Below are positions 7,404-60,004 of a stretch of 64,000 nucleotides of DNA, piece by piece; within the stretch, counting starts at the first letter, position 1; each line of letters begins with the position of its first letter. The DNA lies in IMG/VR virus record IMGVR_UViG_3300045800_000023, positions 1,839 through 65,838 of that record, one strand, 5' to 3'. The notes under the pieces are model-generated. The model was not told where the DNA came from. It saw only the letters and a program-made list of their open reading frames with translations, and did not search any database. The position numbers were made by a program, and so were the translations under genes. The DNA is from a virus.

Positions 7404-8096
7404 ATGACCGATCAAGACAAATTCGACAAGTCTGTGGCTTTAGTCAAGAAATTCTCGCCTGATTTCAATGTCAAGTACAAAACGGGGTCAAAACTGCACC
7501 AAGCAATCGGTTGGATTCTAGGCAAGCTGGGGAATCCTTTGTACAACACGTCATACGTTACCACACTGGGTCAAACAACCTATCTCCCAAGCTCCTGCGA
7601 TCAAGGCGTTACCCCTAATCTATGGCAAGTAATTTTACACGAGGGCATGCACGCAAAAGACGCCAAAGCCATCGGGATTATTCCATTTAGCGCAGCTTAC
7701 CTTATGCCCCAGTTCCTAGGTATCCTCGGTGTCTTCTATACCCTCGTGGTTGGGCTTGGCTGCTTGTTTGGCTGGCCCTTGGCTCTTCTTTGGGGCTGTA
7801 CCTCTCTTGTGTTTCTAGCGCCTCTCCCAGCGTTTGGCAGGGCCTATGCTGAGATCCGTGGGTACACCGTGTCAATTGCTGTTTCTTATTGGGCCGGTAC
7901 CCTTGGGGACGAACAATCCTATTTGGATTGGCTTGTAGATGTTTTTAGTGGTGGTGCTTACTATTTTATGTGGCCAGCAAAAAAATGGGTAAGGTCATAC
8001 TTCGAACAAAAGCTCCAGGAGCTAAAGACCGGCCAGTTCCAGCTGGACGCTTACCTGGCCGCTTGCAAGGTGTTAGCTAAGGAACTGTCGGCTTAG
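7404..8096 (+). CDS. Membrane protein with HExxH putative zinc-peptidase motif
   Basis: VILHEGMH...AEIRGY, internal TM hairpin; ATG 7404 after GAGG. Confidence 0.55.
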   Translation: MTDQDKFDKSVALVKKFSPDFNVKYKTGSKLHQAIGWILGKLGNPLYNTSYVTTLGQTTYLPSSCDQGVTPNLWQVILHEGMHAKDAKAIGIIPFSAAYLMPQFLGILGVFYTLVVGLGCLFGWPLALLWGCTSLVFLAPLPAFGRAYAEIRGYTVSIAVSYWAGTLGDEQSYLDWLVDVFSGGAYYFMWPAKKWVRSYFEQKLQELKTGQFQLDAYLAACKVLAKELSA

Positions 8097-8868
8097 GCAA
8101 GGTAACGTCCACTGGTCTCGCCACTGGTCTCGCCACTGGTCTCGCCACTGGTCTCGCCACTGGTCTCGCCACTGGTCTCGCCACTGGTCGGTTGTACTGG
8201 TTCAGCCAGTTGATGTAATCCGGGTCTTGCTCAGTAGCTTTTTCGAGTCCCCCAGCCAACAGGTCAGCAACAATCTGGTTTCCCAGGTTCTTGCTTTCCC
8301 ATGAATTCAAGTCCAGCTTCTTACACACCTTCCCTAGGCGTGCCAGGGAATGTAGCGGCCAGCGATGTCCAGGGGAATAAAAGGTGTTCTGTACTGCCAT
8401 GGCGGCGATGAAGTCAGGGTGTACAAAAGCAACAGCTCTTGCTTTACCGAATGAGTCAATCGAAATAGACGCTGCCACCTTGCAATGCGCAAAATCAAAT
8501 CCACTTGTCAGCTCCTCGATGTTGCAAACGGGAGATTGACACAGCTGTACTTTGATGCCGTTGACCAGTTCTTCACAGTAGTTCTTGCCCTTCAGCTTGC
8601 CCCTGATGTATGTATAATACGGCTCAACGTCCCAGGGGCTGGGCCAGATATCGATATCATTAAGCGGGCCTCTAATTAGAGCCCCTCCAGCTACAGTGAA
8701 CCTTACAACGCCAACTGTCTTTCTCATGAACTGGATAATCGGCTCTGTAACCTCCAGAGCCCTCTTTACAATTTGCCCCTCCACGTAAGGCTTGACCCAG
8801 TCCATCCCAGACCGGTCAGGCGTTTCTTTGCATGGGGAGGAATTGATGTAGTCGCCTTCTCGGTACAT
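8077..8868 (-). CDS. Pol-beta-superfamily nucleotidyltransferase (CCA/poly(A)-polymerase head-like)
   Basis: AGGALIR...NDIDIW and FDFAHCKVA motifs. Confidence 0.6.
   Translation of the reverse strand: MYREGDYINSSPCKETPDRSGMDWVKPYVEGQIVKRALEVTEPIIQFMRKTVGVVRFTVAGGALIRGPLNDIDIWPSPWDVEPYYTYIRGKLKGKNYCEELVNGIKVQLCQSPVCNIEELTSGFDFAHCKVAASISIDSFGKARAVAFVHPDFIAAMAVQNTFYSPGHRWPLHSLARLGKVCKKLDLNSWESKNLGNQIVADLLAGGLEKATEQDPDYINWLNQYNRPVARPVARPVARPVARPVARPVARPVDVTLPKPTVP
8109..8189. repeat. 12-bp tandem repeat (CCACTGGTCTCG) x6 plus a partial unit, encoding (RPVA)n
   Basis: Read directly; perfect units with no spacers. Confidence 0.95.
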
Positions 8869-8957
8869 TAGTTCAGCACCGTGTAGATGACCCAGGGAGC
8901 GATTGCCCAGGCTAGAGGGGCCAGGGCGAGGGCCAAGAGAATGGTAATTATTGACAT
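8868..8957 (-). CDS. 29-aa hydrophobic membrane peptide (not in ORF track)
   Basis: MSIITILLALALAPLAWAIAPWVIYTVLN; AAGGAGG RBS; TAATG coupling to the next gene. Confidence 0.65.
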   Translation of the reverse strand: MSIITILLALALAPLAWAIAPWVIYTVLN

Positions 8958-9361
8958 ACTGCCTCCTTAACGATTTGTTGTACGGTTTCTTCGATTAATC
9001 TCAGGTCAGGGCTAGAAGGCAGTTTTGTCTTCTTGAGGGCAACCTGGATTAGGCTTTCTGCATCAGAAGCCCAGGCCTCAATCTTTTCGAATGGCCAACT
9101 ACCTTGGCGGACTTCGATTGCCGTCGTCACCTCGGGCGGGGAGGCTTCGGAAACCCTACCGTGACGAGCGAGTATTCGACGTACATATTCATCTATATCG
9201 CCCTGGCTTGGAGTCTCAAGCTGTTTGGCTTCGGGTAACTGAAACGTGTTACATGTGCAGGCATAAGTCCCAGTGTTAGAGCAGCACGTCGCCTCACCCG
9301 CTTTCGGTGGTCCGTCTGGCCCAGAACCTCGTAGGGGCTGGTCTGTTTGATTAGTGGACAT
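8948..9361 (-). CDS. Hypothetical protein whose C-terminus resembles the helical tail of RlaP/Nuc-transf-type nucleotidyltransferases
   Basis: EVRQGSWPFEKIEAW...LPSSPDLRLIEE; start moved to ATG 9361. Confidence 0.45.
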   Translation of the reverse strand: MSTNQTDQPLRGSGPDGPPKAGEATCCSNTGTYACTCNTFQLPEAKQLETPSQGDIDEYVRRILARHGRVSEASPPEVTTAIEVRQGSWPFEKIEAWASDAESLIQVALKKTKLPSSPDLRLIEETVQQIVKEAVCQ

Positions 9362-9365
9362 TTGG

Positions 9366-9539
9366 TTACCGGCACACGCAATTGGAACTGTAGCCAGACG
9401 AGATGTAGGTGTTGCCATCACCGAGACTAGAATGCGTTCTGTGCGTAATCATAGGGATTGCAACAGCCGCAAGAATACCTAAGATAGCGATAATAATCAT
9501 CAGTTCGACGATAGTAAAGCCGTTTTTCTTGTTCTTCAT
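9366..9539 (-). CDS. 57-aa type IV prepilin-like mini-pilin (not in ORF track)
   Basis: MKNKKNG|FTIVELMIIIAILGILAAVAIP: basic leader, G|F cleavage site, E+5, hydrophobic helix, P+22. Confidence 0.85.
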   Translation of the reverse strand: MKNKKNGFTIVELMIIIAILGILAAVAIPMITHRTHSSLGDGNTYISSGYSSNCVCR

Positions 9540-9541
9540 TG

Positions 9542-10066
9542 TTAGTCCAATTGGAAGGGGGAAACGATAATTCTAGGTTCAACGTAAATTGGGGCAACCT
9601 TGTCACTATGGGGGTCCTTGCACATAACCCAGGTTCCCTCTGCTGCGGCTGGAGAGAATAGGCCATTAGGGTCAGCTTGAGGTACGGTAACCGTCGTGAT
9701 GCCCGCACCGGCATAAGTTACAGTGTGGGCCTTTTGTGGGTTGGTGAACTGGGTAGCGTAAGGGATACCATAACCCACCGAGTTACAAAAGAAGACCTTC
9801 TTGCCCTGCATCTCATTCCAGAGGTAGGTATATGTAACCAAACCGTTTTGGTCACGAAGCTCTAGGATGTCCTTCAAAAGCTTGCGCTCCCTGAAGTTCT
9901 TGATAGCTGGCATTCCTGTCTGAGCTGTTCCTTCCTGGAGAAGCTTTTCCTGTTGGGCTCTTTGAATTTGGTCGCTGTCTGGCTTGCGTTCCTCGTCGCA
10001 CCCCTGTTGAGCCATACACAGAGGCAGCAAGCACAAAAGCGGGATAATAGCAAATAGTTTCTTCAT
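9542..10066 (-). CDS. Secreted protein or lipoprotein of a conserved phage family
   Basis: Signal peptide with GC; GIPYATQFTNP and QADPNGLFSP motifs. Confidence 0.7.
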   Translation of the reverse strand: MKKLFAIIPLLCLLPLCMAQQGCDEERKPDSDQIQRAQQEKLLQEGTAQTGMPAIKNFRERKLLKDILELRDQNGLVTYTYLWNEMQGKKVFFCNSVGYGIPYATQFTNPQKAHTVTYAGAGITTVTVPQADPNGLFSPAAAEGTWVMCKDPHSDKVAPIYVEPRIIVSPFQLD

Positions 10067-10080
10067 TTTACGGTCCTTTC

Positions 10081-10425
10081 TTAATGGTTGTTCTTTAGGG
10101 TTTCGACAAAGTTGCGCAAACTGTCTGGTACGCCAGCGTCTTCCATATTGTATCCTGATGCGCGACGCAAGATAATACTTCCTAGAGCAGCCTTGGCATT
10201 GGGGTCCTTCTCCTTAGTGTAGTCGAATTGCATATTTTCCAATTCTTGTACCATACCCTGGTTAAAAGAGCGGGTCTTTTCAAAAACTTCTCGACGCACC
10301 GCTTCTTGCTTGGGGGCGAAGAACTTATAAGTCAACAAATTCCCTCCCTCCACAAGAAACCCAATGCCGAAGAATAGTACAATAATTCCAACAATGCAAG
10401 CGATAACCTTTAGCGCAATCTTCAT
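10081..10425 (-). CDS. N-terminally anchored membrane protein
   Basis: TM then FFAPKQEAVRREVFE; AAGGAG RBS. Confidence 0.7.
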   Translation of the reverse strand: MKIALKVIACIVGIIVLFFGIGFLVEGGNLLTYKFFAPKQEAVRREVFEKTRSFNQGMVQELENMQFDYTKEKDPNAKAALGSIILRRASGYNMEDAGVPDSLRNFVETLKNNH

Positions 10426-10461: not shown

Positions 10462-10500
10462 ATCTTACCACAATCGTCTGGGGAGTCAAGCAACAATCTT
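10462..10500. promoter_or_regulatory. Back-to-back early (-) and late (+) promoter cassette
   Basis: - strand TTGACT-16-TAAGAT with extended TGn; + strand CAATCTT 6 nt before ATG 10507. Confidence 0.65.
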
Positions 10501-54724: not shown

Positions 54725-55022
54725 CGGGCCTCGAATGGTTCTTTAGGTCGTCTAGGGTAAACTCATTGTCGGCCCAGAGAACTCCCTGGATAAAGCCCAG
54801 CCACCTCATAGCCTTCTCGATTCTTCCTTCGTCTACAAACTTCTGTGCTTCTTGACACATGAAGAGAAAGTGAGAAACCTGAGCGTCAGTATTGATAAAA
54901 GCGACAAAAGAGCTTGATTCGCCTAGATTCATTTGTTTAGGCTTTACACCACTGGCAGCCCACCTTTCTTCAATGTGCTTGAAATAGTATTCAAATACCG
55001 ACTTAAGCTTTTCCTTCGTCAT
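54708..55022 (-). CDS. Conserved phage hypothetical protein
   Basis: EKAMRWLGFIQGVLW motif. Confidence 0.65.
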   Translation of the reverse strand: MTKEKLKSVFEYYFKHIEERWAASGVKPKQMNLGESSSFVAFINTDAQVSHFLFMCQEAQKFVDEGRIEKAMRWLGFIQGVLWADNEFTLDDLKNHSRPDEDSK

Positions 55023-57279
55023 CTTTCACCTTTTCTACGGGTCCTCGAATCAATTGCAACTTCCTGAAGCTCCAGCCCTTGTTCAAATCTGTCTTGGTAA
55101 TTACACCAACAATGACCGACCCTTCCTGTAAGTTTTTCACTTCTGCCGGGAATCCCCCATCTTGATTCGGCCAGTATACCACCTCAGACTTGAATCCGCA
55201 AGCGTCAATGAAGATCTTTTTGGCGGTCTTGGACTTGTTTTGGTAGGAGAACGACTCGATACTATCCACATGTGCTACAATGGCGCACTTGAACCCACCT
55301 TGTGGCAATTCCACAGCTGTGTTCATGTCGATAAGATCACCCAGACCGACCAGCCTATCACAACAAGGAACCTCTTCTCTCGCCTCTCGGCTCCAAGCTG
55401 TGTAAGTATAATACAAGCCCCCATTTGTGTCTTCGATGAAGGCATTTGTCTCCATCATATCACGGATATCCTCCGAATACGCAGGTAAAACAGACTTCTT
55501 GACCTGGAACCTCCCCAATGCGTCTAACGTTGGGTATTGGGCTTTGGACTTATTGTACTTTTTTCCAGCTTCCAGCGTATACTTCTTGAGGAGCTCTTGA
55601 TATTCGTCCAGGCGTTCATTGACAGTTGTATTGGGGTCGAACAAGGTGTCTAAAATTCCTGAGACAAACAAGGTATGCATGGTTCCAATGGTAATTGCAC
55701 TTCGTCGCCATTTTCCATCTGCTTCCCCAGCTTTACGATACTCCACAATTTTCTTGCAGAAATCGTCAGCTGATTCGTACGGGGCCCCTTCATTCAATTG
55801 TGCCTGGGCGGTCTCCCCAATCCCGTAGCAAATATCAATAGGGGCCCTGATACGGTCTCCTACAATGGCCCAATTTTCCTTAGACAGCTTGATGTCTGGC
55901 AAGTCTACGATACTTTCGACATATGGCCAGAATTTTGAATAGATTTCGTCTTTCTTAGCGTTCTGAAGGACGCTGCACCACCATTCAAGAGGGTAATAGT
56001 GCTTGAGCCAGGCGCAGGCGTAGGAAATAACAACGTACCCAACCGCGTGAGCTTGACAAAATGAGTACGCGGAAAATTCTAGTAAGCCAGCCCACACTTC
56101 TTTTGCCTTGTCTAACCCAATTTTAGACGCAGCCCGTTCAATGAAAAACGTGTAAAGTTTTGCCATTTCTTCTGGCTTCTTCTTGGCTGACAGCCGACGA
56201 AAGGCCTCAGCTTCACCGCCTGTACAGCCGGTCAACCCCTGGTAGACCTTCTGTAACCCCTCCTGAAACACAATTAGACCGTAGGTTTCAGGAAGCAAAT
56301 CGTCAAATATCGGAAGGACGTCTTTGCTTCCTACCAACCCCCGAATGCGTCTTGCGTATTCTATAAGTAAATTGTGTTTTTGACTAGGGGCTTCAGGGTT
56401 GCTCACCATGAAGTTAAGTGGTCCTGGTCTATCTAGAGCCGTAAAGGCAGCCATTGCAGCAATGCTGTTAATACCAGGTGTTCCATCTGGTCGAGTATGG
56501 TTAAATTGCTTTAGCCACTGAATTGCTGATGGGGTATTGTACTGAAAAACCGTCTCAGTCTTCCCTTGGCTAATGTCCTTGTACACCTCTAGGTCGCTGG
56601 GGAGGTCCCAGATATCGACGAAGCTTTTTGACACAGGGTCCAGTACCAGTCTGTGCCTTGGCACCCTTCGACCATTGACCGTCTGTTCTTTGGGAGACAG
56701 CCCCTCTTCTTTGTCGGCAATTAGCCGCAGACACGATTGGATATCTTTGAGGCACGCCACAACAAGAAAATCAAATTTCAATGCTCCTACGTTTTCAATT
56801 TCGCTCCCTGTAAAGGCAGTCACCTTAACATTTGATATGGTAGTAATAGGGATGAAGTCACTGATTGGCTTAGGAGCGATTACAAAGGCCGAAGCGTGTC
56901 TCCCTCTTTGACGCGGCAATGCAAGAGCCGCCTTTGCTATTTCCCACTGTTCAGGGTACTTGGCTATGTAGGCTTGTAAGGCGGGGTCTCTTTCGATACT
57001 TCCTTGGTGGTTCCCTTCGTCATCAGACCACCCCATGATAAATTTGATGTCCGAAAGCCCTTGTGGAGGCATCTCGAATTTCTTAGCAAGTTCTTCAATG
57101 TCTTGAGGAACCGATCCGAAGGTAAAGCGCGCTACGTCTTTTACACTGTTCTTCAGTTTCAGTGTGGTCAAAACACTTACCTGAGCCTGACAGTCTCCAA
57201 ACCTTTCCTGGAGCCAACCTGGGAAATACGGCTTAAGGGTGCCGTCTTGGGAGCTATTTGTCATTTTCGTGAATTTCAT
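55003..57279 (-). CDS. dnaE: DNA polymerase III alpha-like, C-terminal part (DnaE-C)
   Basis: RQRGRHASAFVI, KFDFLVV, FQY, RPGP, TYGLIVFQE, YSFCQAHA, OB fold. Confidence 0.9.
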   Translation of the reverse strand: MKFTKMTNSSQDGTLKPYFPGWLQERFGDCQAQVSVLTTLKLKNSVKDVARFTFGSVPQDIEELAKKFEMPPQGLSDIKFIMGWSDDEGNHQGSIERDPALQAYIAKYPEQWEIAKAALALPRQRGRHASAFVIAPKPISDFIPITTISNVKVTAFTGSEIENVGALKFDFLVVACLKDIQSCLRLIADKEEGLSPKEQTVNGRRVPRHRLVLDPVSKSFVDIWDLPSDLEVYKDISQGKTETVFQYNTPSAIQWLKQFNHTRPDGTPGINSIAAMAAFTALDRPGPLNFMVSNPEAPSQKHNLLIEYARRIRGLVGSKDVLPIFDDLLPETYGLIVFQEGLQKVYQGLTGCTGGEAEAFRRLSAKKKPEEMAKLYTFFIERAASKIGLDKAKEVWAGLLEFSAYSFCQAHAVGYVVISYACAWLKHYYPLEWWCSVLQNAKKDEIYSKFWPYVESIVDLPDIKLSKENWAIVGDRIRAPIDICYGIGETAQAQLNEGAPYESADDFCKKIVEYRKAGEADGKWRRSAITIGTMHTLFVSGILDTLFDPNTTVNERLDEYQELLKKYTLEAGKKYNKSKAQYPTLDALGRFQVKKSVLPAYSEDIRDMMETNAFIEDTNGGLYYTYTAWSREAREEVPCCDRLVGLGDLIDMNTAVELPQGGFKCAIVAHVDSIESFSYQNKSKTAKKIFIDACGFKSEVVYWPNQDGGFPAEVKNLQEGSVIVGVITKTDLNKGWSFRKLQLIRGPVEKVKDDEGKA

Positions 57280-57333
57280 GAAGACCTCATTATAGCATGC
57301 CGAACAACTTGGGGGAACAACAATCTATAGTGT

Positions 57334-58002
57334 ATGCAAACTTTTCCAAAAACAGAAAACAAACCCTGTACAAAATGCAATATTGAGAAACCCTTCTCTG
57401 AATTCTTCAAAGATCCTAGGGCCAAAGACGGAAGGAGGTCGGAGTGCAAAAAATGCTCACAAAAAGACTCCTTAAGATGGGGCCAGGAACACCCAGACAA
57501 GAGAGCAGAAATCTGGAAAAAGTGGAATGACAAAAACCCAGGAGGAGGCGCACTTAGAGCAAAAAGATGGAGAGAAGAGCACCCAGGAGCCAGGGCCACC
57601 TATATGAGAAACAGATACAAAACAAATCCGGTTCACAGAATAGTTACTATCATGAGATCTGCTCAAAAAAGAGCACTTAACGGTGCGTCTAGAGCGGGGA
57701 AGACTCTAGATCTCCTGGGGTGTTCAGTTGAACACGTAAAGGAGTTAACCGAGGCCTTGTGGTGGCCAGGAATGGACTGGAGCAACCAGTCTCGCCATGG
57801 GTGGCACTGGGACCACATCCTGCCCCTTGACAGCTTTGATTTATCAAACCCAGAACAGCAAAAAATTGCATTTCACCATATGAATCTGCAACCCCTGTGG
57901 GCAGACGACAACTTAAAAAAACACAGCCGACTCGATTGGACTCCAGCTGAATCTAAACACCCGCTTCCGGAACGGCTAAAGCACTTTGCCACCAAGGTGT
58001 AA
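57334..58002 (+). mobile_element. Free-standing HNH homing endonuclease between the dnaE halves, antisense
   Basis: CTKC...CKKC; LLGCS...GMDWSN...HGWHWDHI...NLQPLWADDNLKK; CAATCTA-N6-ATG. Confidence 0.88.
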
Positions 58003-59743
58003 ACTCAACCCCAGCCGACACAACCTCTTTGATTGGTAAAAGCCCTTGCTCAGTTTCCACCACAAATCCATCGGGCAGAATGTGCTTCGTTCCGTCGTCC
58101 GCTTCAACCTCAATCACCTCACACTCTTTCCCACAAAGCAAATCCCTGTTGGAAAAGTCCAGGTCCACGTCGGGCATGGTGTGAGATTTGATGCGGTCAA
58201 GAGTAAGAAACCTGTCTAGACTAAGCCCGTATTGAATAGGATCAATCGAGGTGATGCCCAATAGATAAGACAGCAAAACTCCCCCAGCTGATCCTCGTGA
58301 GCTGCCAACAAGCACCCCTTGGTTTTCATACACTCTACACTGCTCCTCACAGGTGAAGAAATAGGGCAATAGATCTACCGTTCCATTACGATGAAACAGC
58401 TGTATTTCTTGCTTGAGCCTGGCGACATACCTGGGGTCGTCCTTGGGCATTCTTCCGTGTTTGTCAATCAGCGTCTTGGTATGGGCAAGTGTATCTTGTG
58501 GATAGAATTTTGTCGGCAACTGCAACGTGCTGTCAAACTTGAAGTCCTTAAATAGGTCCCTAAAGGAATAGCTGTTGTCAACCCAAGACTCGAATTCCTT
58601 TTCAGAAACATTGTGTTTTTGTTTGAAGTGAGTAAAGGCCTCGCCACTTGACATCCTGTGGTACGAGGAAAAGAACCGCCAATCCCCCATTTGAGAGAGC
58701 TTTACGTCCTGAACAATTTTCATATCTTTTGACGCAAAGTGACAGTCGTCACTAACCAATATGGGCAACTTGTGCTTCTTGGCCATGCCCATCATAAACA
58801 CGTTCACTCCCCACTGAAGGTCACCGTCAGGAGCGGCGGGACTACACTCATTGACAATGAATCCCTCCTGTTTGCGTACACTAACAATCGGAAGAGGGAA
58901 CTCCACATCTTGCCAGGTATGAAAATTCTTAATAGCAAGAAGTGTCAACTTCTTCTTATCGTTCCATTTGTCGGCCAGCTCTTCGGCTTTAACTTCACCT
59001 TCTTCTGTCTTTAGGGTCTTCCCATAATAAAACTTCAAGGTCTTCTTGACATCACCGGCCCCCACCTCGATGAATACCCCCTTGGAGTATTCCCTGTCAC
59101 ATACGTGAGGAAAAACCTCGACAAACATCCTGTCTCCAAATAGATGGTGAAGCCTTTTAAAATAGGCCTTGGCTGCGCCTACCTTCACTTCTGGAGAGCT
59201 TTCGGTGTTGATTAGGTGTCTGGCTATCATTCCGACGAGGCAGCCAGCGCCTATCGTTGTTTTGGTGGCTGCCAGCTCTTCAAGGTCTGACCAGTCAAAC
59301 AAAGGCTTTCTCTCTGAACCATGGGTTTCTGCCCGGTCATCGGCCTTGGATAGAAGCTTGACCCCCTTAAGGTATGCTTCATAATTCTGAAAACCTAACG
59401 TGATATGGTAATATTTGTTGTACGAATAGAAACTACCGGTTGGATGTTCCAGTTTCCACTTTTCTTTGTCCATCCCCCTAGGCACAACGTCGGTCTTAGG
59501 CACTCCAAGCTTTGTCAAAATTGGACAGTCATCCGACCTAAAATAAGCCTCAATCCCTGAAATGGCGATTAGTCCATTCTTTTTTGCTAAAGACGAAATC
59601 CTGTAGATAGCAGAAAGGCTACCGTGATCCGTGGCGGTTATTGCCCCCGTTTCCAGTTCCAGTTCTTTAATACAGAAAGCCTCAGGAGTTGAAGCGGAGT
59701 CCAATGACATTACGTGGCAATGTGGCGTCACAAAATTACGCAT
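57953..59743 (-). CDS. dnaE: DNA polymerase III alpha-like, N-terminal part (PHP plus palm start; DnaE-N)
   Basis: PHCH, TDHG, GIEAY, SDDCHF, RGSAGG..LSYLLGIT.IDP, MPDVDLDF; start ATG 59743 (AGGA RBS). Confidence 0.92.
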   Translation of the reverse strand: MRNFVTPHCHVMSLDSASTPEAFCIKELELETGAITATDHGSLSAIYRISSLAKKNGLIAISGIEAYFRSDDCPILTKLGVPKTDVVPRGMDKEKWKLEHPTGSFYSYNKYYHITLGFQNYEAYLKGVKLLSKADDRAETHGSERKPLFDWSDLEELAATKTTIGAGCLVGMIARHLINTESSPEVKVGAAKAYFKRLHHLFGDRMFVEVFPHVCDREYSKGVFIEVGAGDVKKTLKFYYGKTLKTEEGEVKAEELADKWNDKKKLTLLAIKNFHTWQDVEFPLPIVSVRKQEGFIVNECSPAAPDGDLQWGVNVFMMGMAKKHKLPILVSDDCHFASKDMKIVQDVKLSQMGDWRFFSSYHRMSSGEAFTHFKQKHNVSEKEFESWVDNSYSFRDLFKDFKFDSTLQLPTKFYPQDTLAHTKTLIDKHGRMPKDDPRYVARLKQEIQLFHRNGTVDLLPYFFTCEEQCRVYENQGVLVGSSRGSAGGVLLSYLLGITSIDPIQYGLSLDRFLTLDRIKSHTMPDVDLDFSNRDLLCGKECEVIEVEADDGTKHILPDGFVVETEQGLLPIKEVVSAGVEFTPWWQSALAVPEAGV

Positions 59744-60004
59744 TGTTTCTTTCCTACCTTCCAAAAGTGGACAAAGCCACACATTATACCACGACCAAGG
59801 CCGGAAGTCGCCCTGGTCGCAGGTTAACTCCTCTTACAAAATATGTTCGTTAACAACCCAAGCGAAAACGGGGATCCCTAGAATGCTAATAACGCGCCAA
59901 ACACGGATATAGTGAATGGTCTTGCTAGTTTGCGTTCTCCAGGAATAGGTCCGCTCTTTGGCAAACTTCCAGATATCGACTGTAATCAACTGTAATCAAC
60001 ATTG

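What the first reader, a model, noticed from the sequence alone, without database searches (positions are those of the whole stretch)
9366..9539. Phage-encoded type IV mini-pilin (57 aa) missed by the ORF track
Seen: MKNKKNG|FTIVELMIIIAILGILAAVAIPMITHRTHSSLGDGNTYISSGYSSNCVCR, with a complete class III signal, E+5 and P+22 but almost no globular head, and a terminal CxC. Established: the alpha1-N helix closely resembles T4aP PilA of Myxococcus, Geobacter and Pseudomonas, and pili are common phage receptors. Inference: a dominant-negative pilin mimic that is processed by host PilD and poisons or caps pilus assembly (superinfection exclusion). It could instead be a short Geobacter-like pilin that alters host pili. 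It also hints at a T4aP-bearing host, possibly Myxococcota or Desulfobacterota.
Basis: partly seen in the sequence, partly recalled or inferred. Interest (0 to 1): 0.8.

Follow-up and report, generated by a model that had tools for sequence, protein, structure and literature searches.

The report
Phage headless mini-pilin gene cassette
A large soil phage related to Myxococcus phage Mx1 carries a real, conserved 57-codon gene that encodes only the signal and membrane stalk of a bacterial pilus subunit; it arrived with two other envelope genes and probably tampers with the host's pili, an idea already in print for other phages but never tested.

Summary
The 57-aa ORF lies on the minus strand at 9366-9539 and reads exactly as quoted. 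It passes the curated prepilin models PF07963 and TIGR02532. It has G-1, F+1, E+5 and P+22, one predicted helix and an unstructured 22-aa tail.

It is a real gene, not a scrap. A second metagenomic contig carries the same three genes in the same order: membrane-anchored protein, lipoprotein, then mini-pilin. That 49-aa homologue also ends in C-x-C-R. Substitutions show purifying selection as strong as in the two neighbours.

The phage is a roughly 170-kb relative of Myxococcus phage Mx1, found in peat and permafrost. A close relative lacks the cassette, and its insertion broke a nucleotidyltransferase gene, so it is a recent three-gene acquisition.

A large family of 63-65-aa mini-pilins (at least 166 clusters) sits beside the same gene pair in freshwater cyanophage-like contigs.

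Function is inferred only. Most likely the host prepilin peptidase processes it and it disturbs type IV filament assembly or regulation, giving superinfection exclusion. Truncated phage pilins of about 60 aa were already noted in print (Cell Rep 2026) without tests. Earlier notes of this scan also describe headless phage mini-pilins on other DNA. I rate it a new variant of a known kind, of moderate interest.

The parts
9366..9539 (-). Mini-prepilin gene: 57 codons plus a TAA stop.
   Evidence: Translation. PF07963 35.6 bits. TIGR02532 23.7 bits. Homologue P0153 in L170.
9519..9539 (-). Class III leader MKNKKNG. The predicted prepilin-peptidase cut lies after Gly7.
   Evidence: Read from the sequence. 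The PF07963 match covers residues 2-28. Cleavage itself is inferred.
9435..9518 (-). Alpha1-N stalk, residues 8-35, with F+1, E+5 and P+22.
   Evidence: AlphaFold2 helix at residues 10-35. NCBIfam pilin and pseudopilin models all match only this part.
9369..9434 (-). Polar 22-aa tail ending in C-V-C-R, with no predicted structure.
   Evidence: pLDDT below 60. The C-x-C-R terminus is shared with P0153. The SLGDG/GN[ST][FY]I stretch aligns with other mini-pilins.
9542..10066 (-). 174-aa lipoprotein-like cassette gene (phrog_24725). Its TAA stop lies 2 nt before the pilin ATG.
   Evidence: phrog_24725 E 7e-36. The lipobox Cys23 is nearly invariant in alignment A3. 66% identical to the L170 copy.
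10081..10425 (-). 114-aa protein with an N-terminal membrane helix (phrog_26268), first gene of the cassette.
   Evidence: Found next to the lipoprotein gene in all 80 related viral loci. 57% identical to the L170 copy.
8948..9361 (-). 137-aa ORF that keeps only the last ~55 residues of a 343-aa nucleotidyltransferase. This is the scar of the cassette insertion.
   Evidence: phrog_388 over residues 82-135 only. Full-length genes in relatives L168 and L169.
10462..10489 (-). Sigma-70-like promoter match (TTGACT-16-TAAGAT with TG) ahead of the cassette.
   Evidence: The number of such matches in the region does not exceed the shuffles, so this is a pointer only.

Best explanation
A real gene for a 'headless' type IV prepilin. 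It consists of a 7-aa basic leader, the alpha1-N membrane stalk with F+1, E+5 and P+22, and a 22-aa unstructured periplasmic tail ending in C-x-C-R.

It is the third gene of a mobile phage cassette: membrane-anchored protein, lipoprotein, mini-pilin. A ~170-kb relative of Myxococcus phage Mx1 from peat and permafrost acquired this cassette recently.

Inferred mechanism:
- The host's own prepilin peptidase cuts and N-methylates the protein; no phage peptidase is seen.
- The mature 50-aa stalk joins the inner-membrane pilin pool.
- There it disturbs a type IV filament machine (T4aP or the T2SS pseudopilus). It could dock or incorporate as a defective subunit, or it could mimic a full pilin pool to the PilS-type sensor.
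- Surface pili fall, and pilus-dependent competitor or sibling phages can no longer adsorb. This is superinfection exclusion.

Shown: gene reality, the motif set, the headless architecture, cassette linkage, horizontal acquisition and purifying selection. Inferred: processing, the target and the phenotype.
For: - Motifs and curated HMM cut-offs are met.
- The model is a single helix plus a disordered tail.
- The independent contig L170 carries the same three genes in the same order. Its 49-aa mini-pilin is 48% identical and ends in CICR.
- Substitution pattern: pilin pN 0.28 and pS 0.83, matching the neighbours at 0.27/0.85 and 0.23/0.71.
- L168 comes from a closely related phage (flanking proteins 62-86% identical) and lacks the cassette. 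It has an intact nucleotidyltransferase where the window has a remnant.
- At least 166 clusters of 63-65-aa mini-pilins exist in cyanophage-like contigs. In 15 of 42 loci they lie within 2.5 kb of the same gene pair (most directly abutting), in two arrangements.
- G-1, F/Y+1, T+2 and E+5 are conserved in all but a few degenerate copies of that family. Conservation of E+5 is expected for docking into pilin assemblies rather than for a plain membrane anchor (established pilin biology, from my own knowledge).
- No Peptidase_A24 gene is present in the 66-kb record.
- Published precedent: prophage P-FimU replaces host FimU and blocks pilus phages (experimental). In the same paper, truncated ~60-aa PilA-like proteins of six virulent Pseudomonas phages are proposed to incorporate into pili or inhibit assembly (PMC12952977).
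- PilA in the inner membrane signals to PilS (PMC6058289).
Against: - There is no experimental or expression evidence. An RNA-library contig spans 9338-9538, but contigs cannot prove transcription.
- The host is unknown, so the presence of T4aP and PilD in it is assumed.
- The strict linkage to a membrane protein and a lipoprotein suggests the target could be something other than pili.
- In the cyanophage family the most conserved part is the C-terminal disulfide loop, not the stalk. This points to a specific periplasmic ligand.
- P0001 lacks that loop.
- No Shine-Dalgarno sequence precedes the ATG, so translation would depend on coupling to the lipoprotein gene.
Confidence: 0.45

Rival explanations
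1. The class III signal is only an export and anchoring device. The mini-pilin is a small periplasm-facing subunit that works with the neighbouring membrane protein and lipoprotein as one envelope complex. That complex might block DNA entry by incoming phages or modulate envelope or lysis physiology, and pili are not the target.
For: - The mini-pilin directly abuts the TM+lipoprotein pair in the window and in L170.
- Most of the 15 of 42 cyanophage-type loci that hold the pair within 2.5 kb show the same abutment.
- Other copies lie next to a small two-helix membrane protein and a Band_7/SPFH protein.
- The C-terminal loop is more conserved than the stalk in the cyanophage family.
- The lipoprotein family also occurs in a Clostridium phage, so the pair itself cannot depend on Gram-negative pili.
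Against: - G-1, F/Y+1 and E+5 are conserved in nearly all family members. A charged Glu inside a plain anchor would not be kept.
- Most loci with the pair have no mini-pilin (about 65 of 80). Twenty-seven of 42 mini-pilin loci lack the pair within 2.5 kb. The linkage is therefore facultative.
- I looked for the cyanophage C-terminal motif behind other anchors and found none.
Confidence: 0.25
2. It is a substrate decoy for the prepilin peptidase. Abundant mini-prepilin saturates PilD/GspO, so host pilins and pseudopilins stay unprocessed and both T4P and T2SS fail.
For: - It has a complete, canonical leader and cleavage site.
- It is small and cheap to overproduce.
- Unprocessed prepilins are known to be harmful in a cyanobacterial pilD mutant (PMC8546353 abstract).
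Against: - E+5 and P+22 are not needed for cleavage (from my own knowledge of P. aeruginosa pilin mutants), yet both are kept.
- A good substrate is turned over rather than blocking the enzyme.
- The conserved tail motifs would have no role.
Confidence: 0.1
3. It is a working pilin subunit that host machinery assembles into filaments, or into their tips, to the phage's benefit. It might change adhesion, aggregation or the receptor properties of pili, as the pilins of the archaeal provirus SNJ2 do.
For: - Virus-encoded pilins that form the host's dominant pili are documented for SNJ2 (PMC12426801).
- Full-length pilin-like genes of 131-155 aa are common in viral contigs.
Against: - There is no globular domain to form a filament surface.
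- The phage's nearest isolated relative, Mx1, is not temperate (from my own knowledge), so long-term host benefit is unlikely.
- Only three aromatic residues and no PilA-C-like partner argue against a Geobacter-type filament.
Confidence: 0.08
4. It is a decaying leftover. The ORF would be the 5' stub of a longer pilin gene truncated by the same recombination that broke the adjacent nucleotidyltransferase, and it would no longer function.
For: - It lies 4 nt upstream of a clear gene remnant at a recombination scar.
- It lacks the disulfide loop present in related mini-pilins.
- It was a singleton in the word-indexed protein search.
Against: - The L170 homologue stops at the same C-x-C-R in an unrelated downstream context.
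- pN is far below pS, as in the neighbours.
- The downstream DNA shows no trace of the loop motif in any frame.
- The same sequence is found without any difference in several peat and permafrost data sets.
Confidence: 0.07

Closest known systems
Truncated phage PilA-like proteins (P-PilA, N-terminal ~60 residues) of six virulent Pseudomonas phages, noted in 'A prophage-expressed type IV pilus component provides anti-phage defense' (Cell Rep 2026, PMC12952977).
   Same: Both are phage-encoded and consist of only the N-terminal helix of a major-pilin-like protein, about 50-60 residues. Neither is in a temperate phage. The proposed role is the same: incorporate into pili or inhibit their assembly to exclude pilus-dependent phages. 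Neither has been tested.
   Different: The phage lineage and probable host phylum differ. P0001 has a conserved C-x-C-R tail and belongs to a three-gene cassette with a membrane protein and a lipoprotein. Similarity to short PHROG pilin-like families is limited to the shared stalk. I could not retrieve the Pseudomonas phage sequences for a direct comparison.
Prophage P-FimU minor-pilin mimics of P. aeruginosa F10-like phages (same paper).
   Same: Both would be phage copies of a type IV pilus subunit that use the host's assembly pathway and protect against pilus-dependent phages.
   Different: P-FimU is a full-length, folded minor pilin that functionally replaces FimU. P0001 has no head domain and cannot replace a structural subunit.
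Cyanophage-type 63-65-aa mini-pilins (at least 166 clusters, auto-annotated only as prepilin-type N-terminal cleavage/methylation domain proteins).
   Same: They share the leader, the stalk and the GN[ST][FY]I turn. They also share the position directly beside the same TM+lipoprotein pair.
   Different: They carry an almost invariant disulfide loop, C-x2-AGGKWSEGIQYGRxTQLC-TYN, that P0001 lacks. They occur in low-GC freshwater Synechococcus-myophage-like contigs.
Bacterial type IVa major pilins such as Myxococcus xanthus PilA (NF041775), and T2SS pseudopilin GspG (TIGR01710).
   Same: The class III signal, F+1, E+5, P+22 and the GILAAVAIP stalk are the same. The Myxococcus model is the best NCBIfam match.
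   Different: Scores are far below the family cut-offs (36 against 400, and 28 against 89). There is no alpha-beta head and no D-region, and the gene is not linked to pil or gsp genes.
Geobacter sulfurreducens PilA-N short pilin (61-aa mature).
   Same: Both are very short mature pilins with a T4a-type N-terminus.
   Different: Geobacter PilA-N pairs with PilA-C, encoded next door, and is rich in spaced aromatic residues. P0001 has only F1, Y38 and Y43 and no such neighbour.
Cytoplasmic phage inhibitors of type IV pili: Aqs1 and Tip (bind PilB), PfsE (binds PilC), Zip and PlzR (bind PilZ).
   Same: The expected outcome is the same: loss of pilus function and superinfection exclusion (PMC13436744, PMC8764522, PMC11461919).
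   Different: These are unrelated small proteins that bind machine components. None mimics the pilin substrate or depends on the prepilin peptidase.

Membership tests
Type IV pilin / pseudopilin superfamily (class III signal; PF07963, TIGR02532) | HMM score above the curated cut-off. | tested here: met
   PF07963 35.6 bits against 21.2. TIGR02532 23.7 bits against 16.3.
Type IV pilin / pseudopilin superfamily (class III signal; PF07963, TIGR02532) | Short basic leader ending in Gly-1, hydrophobic +1 residue (Phe), Glu+5, and a hydrophobic helix of about 20 aa. | tested here: met
   MKNKKNG|FTIVE.... Helix at residues 10-35 in the model.
Type IV pilin / pseudopilin superfamily (class III signal; PF07963, TIGR02532) | Globular alpha-beta head domain after the stalk, usually with a C-terminal disulfide-bonded D-region. 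| tested here: not met
   Only 22 residues follow the helix and they have no predicted structure. The two Cys are separated by a single residue.
Type IV pilin / pseudopilin superfamily (class III signal; PF07963, TIGR02532) | Cleavage and N-methylation by a prepilin peptidase, and assembly into a filament. | not testable with these tools
   This needs expression in a host with and without pilD. No Peptidase_A24 gene is present in the 66-kb phage record.
Myxococcus-type major pilin PilA (NF041775) | Full-length match above the equivalog cut-off of 400 bits. | tested here: not met
   36.3 bits, with residues 4-46 matching model positions 9-52 only.
Geobacter-type short conductive pilin (PilA-N with PilA-C) | Adjacent PilA-C-like gene and a dense array of aromatic residues along the mature peptide. 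| tested here: not met
   The neighbours are a lipoprotein-like gene and a nucleotidyltransferase remnant. The mature peptide has three aromatic residues.
Flp/Tad type IVc pilins | G/xxxxEY processing motif and a Flp_Fap Pfam match. | tested here: not met
   Leu, not Tyr, follows E+5. The only Pfam hit is N_methyl.
Phage-encoded truncated (headless) pilins as noted in PMC12952977 | Encoded by a phage, consists of only the pilin N-terminal stalk (about 60 aa or fewer), and is conserved in more than one genome. | tested here: met
   The phage context comes from Mx1 synteny. The gene is 57 aa. The homologue in L170 shows purifying selection.
Phage-encoded truncated (headless) pilins as noted in PMC12952977 | Sequence kinship with the Pseudomonas phage proteins beyond the generic stalk. 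| not tested
   The paper's sequence table is not held. tblastn against 50,697 phage records gave no match, possibly because of the low-complexity filter.
TM + lipoprotein + mini-pilin phage cassette (defined here) | A mini-pilin gene directly adjacent to a phrog_26268 / phrog_24725 pair on the same strand. | tested here: met
   Window genes at 10425-10081, 10066-9542 and 9539-9366. L170 has the same order. Most of the 15 cyanophage-type loci that hold the pair nearby also show it.

The most novel reading that the evidence does not exclude
The mini-pilin is the third subunit of a mobile phage envelope module: a membrane-anchored helical protein, an inner-membrane lipoprotein and a peptide matured by the prepilin peptidase. 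Together they would form a previously undescribed superinfection-exclusion or envelope-remodelling system that co-opts the host prepilin peptidase for its own maturation. The module would be exchanged between unrelated large phages (Mx1-like soil phages and freshwater cyanomyophages) and would come in several tail 'flavours': C-x-C-R, an AGGKWSEGIQYGR disulfide loop, and a C-x-GGY hairpin.
Probability: 0.2. Interest if true: 0.7.

Novelty: new variant of a known kind. Interest (0 to 1): 0.45.

Why it matters
Type IV pili are major phage receptors and also drive motility, predation, DNA uptake and adhesion. All characterised phage inhibitors of pili bind cytoplasmic machine parts. A substrate mimic that enters the machine through the pilin pathway itself would be a different mode of attack, and its small size makes it a simple tool for switching type IV filaments off.

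This case adds three things to the brief published remark on truncated phage pilins:
- Such genes are under selection outside Pseudomonas phages.
- They travel with a defined pair of envelope genes.
- A very large, highly conserved cyanophage family exists that nobody has examined.

It also gives a testable host clue for an uncultured peat and permafrost phage related to Mx1.

Tried and rejected
- Complex prediction of the membrane protein, the lipoprotein and the mature mini-pilin gave no verdict (score 0.02, controls not run). This counts neither for nor against binding.
- The lipoprotein-like protein folded poorly (pLDDT 63). Foldseek against the PDB gave nothing below E 0.36. Atlas look-ups returned only unnamed viral clusters. 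The function of the pair stays unknown.
- tblastn of P0001 and of a cyanophage mini-pilin against 50,697 isolate phage records gave no match. The low-complexity filter may hide the stalk.
- Mx1 and S-SRM01 have no PF07963 match.
- The word-indexed protein search found only P0001 itself. The exhaustive search was needed to find P0153.
- A scan of 185,579 species genomes for the lipoprotein family hit only MAG contigs, many labelled Patescibacteria and probably mis-binned phages. No mini-pilin lay beside the pair in these loci, so no host assignment was possible.
- A frameshift fusion of the pilin with the downstream ORF was considered. I rejected it because the L170 homologue ends at the same C-x-C-R stop in a different downstream context.
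- The 'junk tail from the recombination scar' idea was rejected for the same reason and because of the substitution pattern.
- No direct repeat links the tail to the Cys-rich start of the next ORF.
- Promoter and terminator matches do not exceed the shuffles.
- An RNA-library run holds a contig over 9338-9538, but contigs cannot show transcription. No sequence variants were seen, so no population-level test was possible.
- The 673-nt gap in the split polymerase has no Rfam or Pfam match.

Full report
**Observation.** The + strand of 9366-9539 translates to nonsense. The protein has these parts:
- a 7-aa basic leader ending in Gly;
- Phe+1, Glu+5 and Pro+22;
- a hydrophobic stretch of about 24 residues;
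- a polar 22-25-aa tail ending in CVCR.

Pfam N_methyl scores 35.6 bits against a cut-off of 21.2, and TIGR02532 scores 23.7 against 16.3. All other NCBIfam pilin and pseudopilin models match only the first 30-45 residues and fall far below their cut-offs. The best of these is the Myxococcus PilA model at 36 bits against 400. AlphaFold2 gives one helix at residues 10-35 and an unstructured tail. The gene was 'missed' only because it is shorter than 60 codons; the public protein collection already holds it with the Pfam tag.

**Local anatomy.** The ORF is the third gene of a tightly packed minus-strand run:
- a 114-aa protein with an N-terminal membrane helix (10425-10081, phrog_26268);
- a 174-aa protein with a lipobox cysteine (10066-9542, phrog_24725, E 7e-36);
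- the mini-pilin, whose ATG lies 2 nt after the lipoprotein gene's stop;
- 4 nt later, a 137-aa ORF (9361-8948);
- a 263-aa gene (8868-8077).

The pilin has no Shine-Dalgarno sequence, unlike its two upstream neighbours, so translation would rely on coupling.

**The phage.**
- The window lies in a 65,981-bp viral record that CheckV rates 39% complete, which implies a genome of about 170 kb.
- Its DnaE-type polymerase is 40% identical, over 97% of its length, to that of Myxococcus phage Mx1 (169.6 kb).
- About 22 window genes have syntenic Mx1 counterparts at 27-46% identity.
- GC content is 47%, against 55.5% for Mx1.
- Identical DNA occurs in permafrost and peat metagenomes from several studies.
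- The Myxococcota host hint is therefore reasonable but unproven.
- No prepilin peptidase gene is present in the record.

**The gene sits at a recombination scar.**
- Two related viral contigs, L168 and L169, share the flanking genes. For L168 these are 62-86% identical at the protein level.
- Between those flanks they carry an HNH gene, a relative of the 263-aa gene (L168 only) and an intact 343-aa nucleotidyltransferase. They have no membrane protein, lipoprotein or pilin.
- The window's 137-aa ORF keeps only the last ~55 residues of that nucleotidyltransferase.
- The cassette was therefore inserted recently and destroyed a resident gene.

This raised the possibility that the mini-pilin is itself a truncated scrap.

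**That possibility is rejected.** An exhaustive HMMER search of 1.8 billion representatives gave 4,664 hits, nearly all through the stalk alone. One hit is a true full-length relative: P0153, 49 aa, ending in CICR. Its contig L170 carries the same three genes in the same order. The membrane protein is 57% identical, the lipoprotein 66% and the mini-pilin 48%, and the pilin ATG lies 3 nt after the lipoprotein stop. Between the two cassettes synonymous sites are saturated, while non-synonymous change is low and equal across the three genes:

| gene | pN | pS |
|---|---|---|
| mini-pilin | 0.28 | 0.83 |
| membrane protein | 0.27 | 0.85 |
| lipoprotein | 0.23 | 0.71 |

The C-x-C-R terminus is thus native and the gene is under purifying selection.

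**Wider family.**
- The membrane-protein and lipoprotein pair is present in all 80 related viral loci fetched.
- The pair also occurs in Synechococcus phage S-SRM01, the lipoprotein gene also in Vibrio phages and in Clostridium phage phi3626, and the lipoprotein gene in many MAG contigs that look like mis-binned large phages.
- In about 15 of the 80 loci a 63-65-aa mini-pilin lies directly after the lipoprotein gene or directly before the membrane-protein gene.
- This type forms at least 166 clusters. It resembles nothing in isolate phages. It comes from contigs similar to freshwater Synechococcus myophages.
- G-1, F/Y+1, T+2 and E+5 are conserved in all but a few degenerate copies, and nearly all carry the invariant C-terminal loop C-x2-AGGKWSEGIQYGRxTQLC-TYN.
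- Starting from the mini-pilin, 15 of 42 viral loci have the pair within 2.5 kb. Others have a small two-helix membrane protein and a Band_7/SPFH protein instead.
- P0001 aligns with this family through the GN[ST][FY]I turn but lacks the loop.
- A further group of about 70-aa mini-pilins has a cysteine-bracketed hairpin, and the two cysteines of P0001 align with its brackets.
- Many viral contigs also encode full-length pilin-like proteins of 131-155 aa.

**Mechanism.** Nothing here tests function. The conserved G-1, F+1 and E+5 argue that the host prepilin peptidase processes the protein and that it interacts with pilins or their machine, rather than serving as a plain anchor. With no head, it cannot build a normal filament surface. 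The best-supported reading is interference with a type IV filament, by one of three routes:
- incorporation or docking as a defective subunit;
- titration of the peptidase;
- signalling a 'full' pilin pool to a PilS-type sensor, which is known to sense inner-membrane PilA (PMC6058289).

The expected result is loss of pili and exclusion of pilus-dependent phages. This matches a published suggestion for truncated ~60-aa PilA-like proteins in six virulent Pseudomonas phages. It also matches the experimental demonstration that prophage P-FimU mimics a minor pilin to block phages (PMC12952977). Archaeal provirus SNJ2 shows that viral pilins can be assembled by host machinery (PMC12426801).

The main rival reading is that the class III signal merely delivers a small periplasmic peptide that works with the two neighbours in an envelope complex unrelated to pili. 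The facultative but recurrent linkage, and the highly conserved C-terminal loop of the cyanophage family, keep this reading alive.

**Novelty and verdict.** The idea and the class (headless phage pilins) are already in print, though untested. Earlier notes of this scan describe similar genes in other phages. What is new here:
- a distinct C-x-C-R type in an Mx1-like soil phage;
- the three-gene cassette and its recent horizontal acquisition;
- the very large cyanophage family.

I rate it a new variant of a known kind, with interest 0.45.

Noticed in passing
window 55003-59782 (minus strand): The DnaE-type polymerase is split into two ORFs, 59782-57953 and 57279-55003. They match directly adjacent coordinates of the single Mx1 gene. 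The 673-nt gap between them holds ORFs with no Pfam hit and has no Rfam match. It may be an intron or another insertion, and remains unexplained.
   Followed up: partly
window 8948-9361 (minus strand): A 137-aa ORF is the 3' remnant of a 343-aa nucleotidyltransferase (phrog_388) that is intact in related contigs L168 and L169. Its first ~75 residues are unrelated and Cys-rich.
   Followed up: yes
window 8077-8868 (minus strand): The 263-aa protein ends in seven tandem ARPV repeats. Its relative in L168 (232 aa, 29% identity) shows no such repeat.
   Followed up: no
window 9542-10425; loci L003-L082 and L174-L223: The membrane-protein and lipoprotein pair (phrog_26268 plus phrog_24725) is a very widespread phage gene pair of unknown function. 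The pair occurs in many large uncultured phages and in Synechococcus phage S-SRM01, and the lipoprotein gene also in Vibrio phages and Clostridium phage phi3626. Many 'Patescibacteria' MAG contigs that carry it look like mis-binned phage genomes.
   Followed up: partly
L009:4677-5718, L242:2910-3922, L254:2692-3690: In cyanophage-like contigs the mini-pilin is often followed by a 53-60-aa two-helix membrane protein and a 270-283-aa Band_7/SPFH protein (Pfam hit checked for L009). This echoes earlier scan notes that link phage mini-pilins with SPFH-type membrane proteins.
   Followed up: partly
proteins P0143, P0149, P0167, P0181; L090:868-1089: These form a separate group of about 70-aa mini-pilins whose tail is a cysteine-bracketed hairpin (C-x-G-G-Y ... 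G-x-G-I-x-C). At least one lies on an 82-kb viral contig. No description of them was found.
   Followed up: partly
Mx1 also has a nicotinamide phosphoribosyltransferase and an NMN adenylyltransferase.
   Followed up: no
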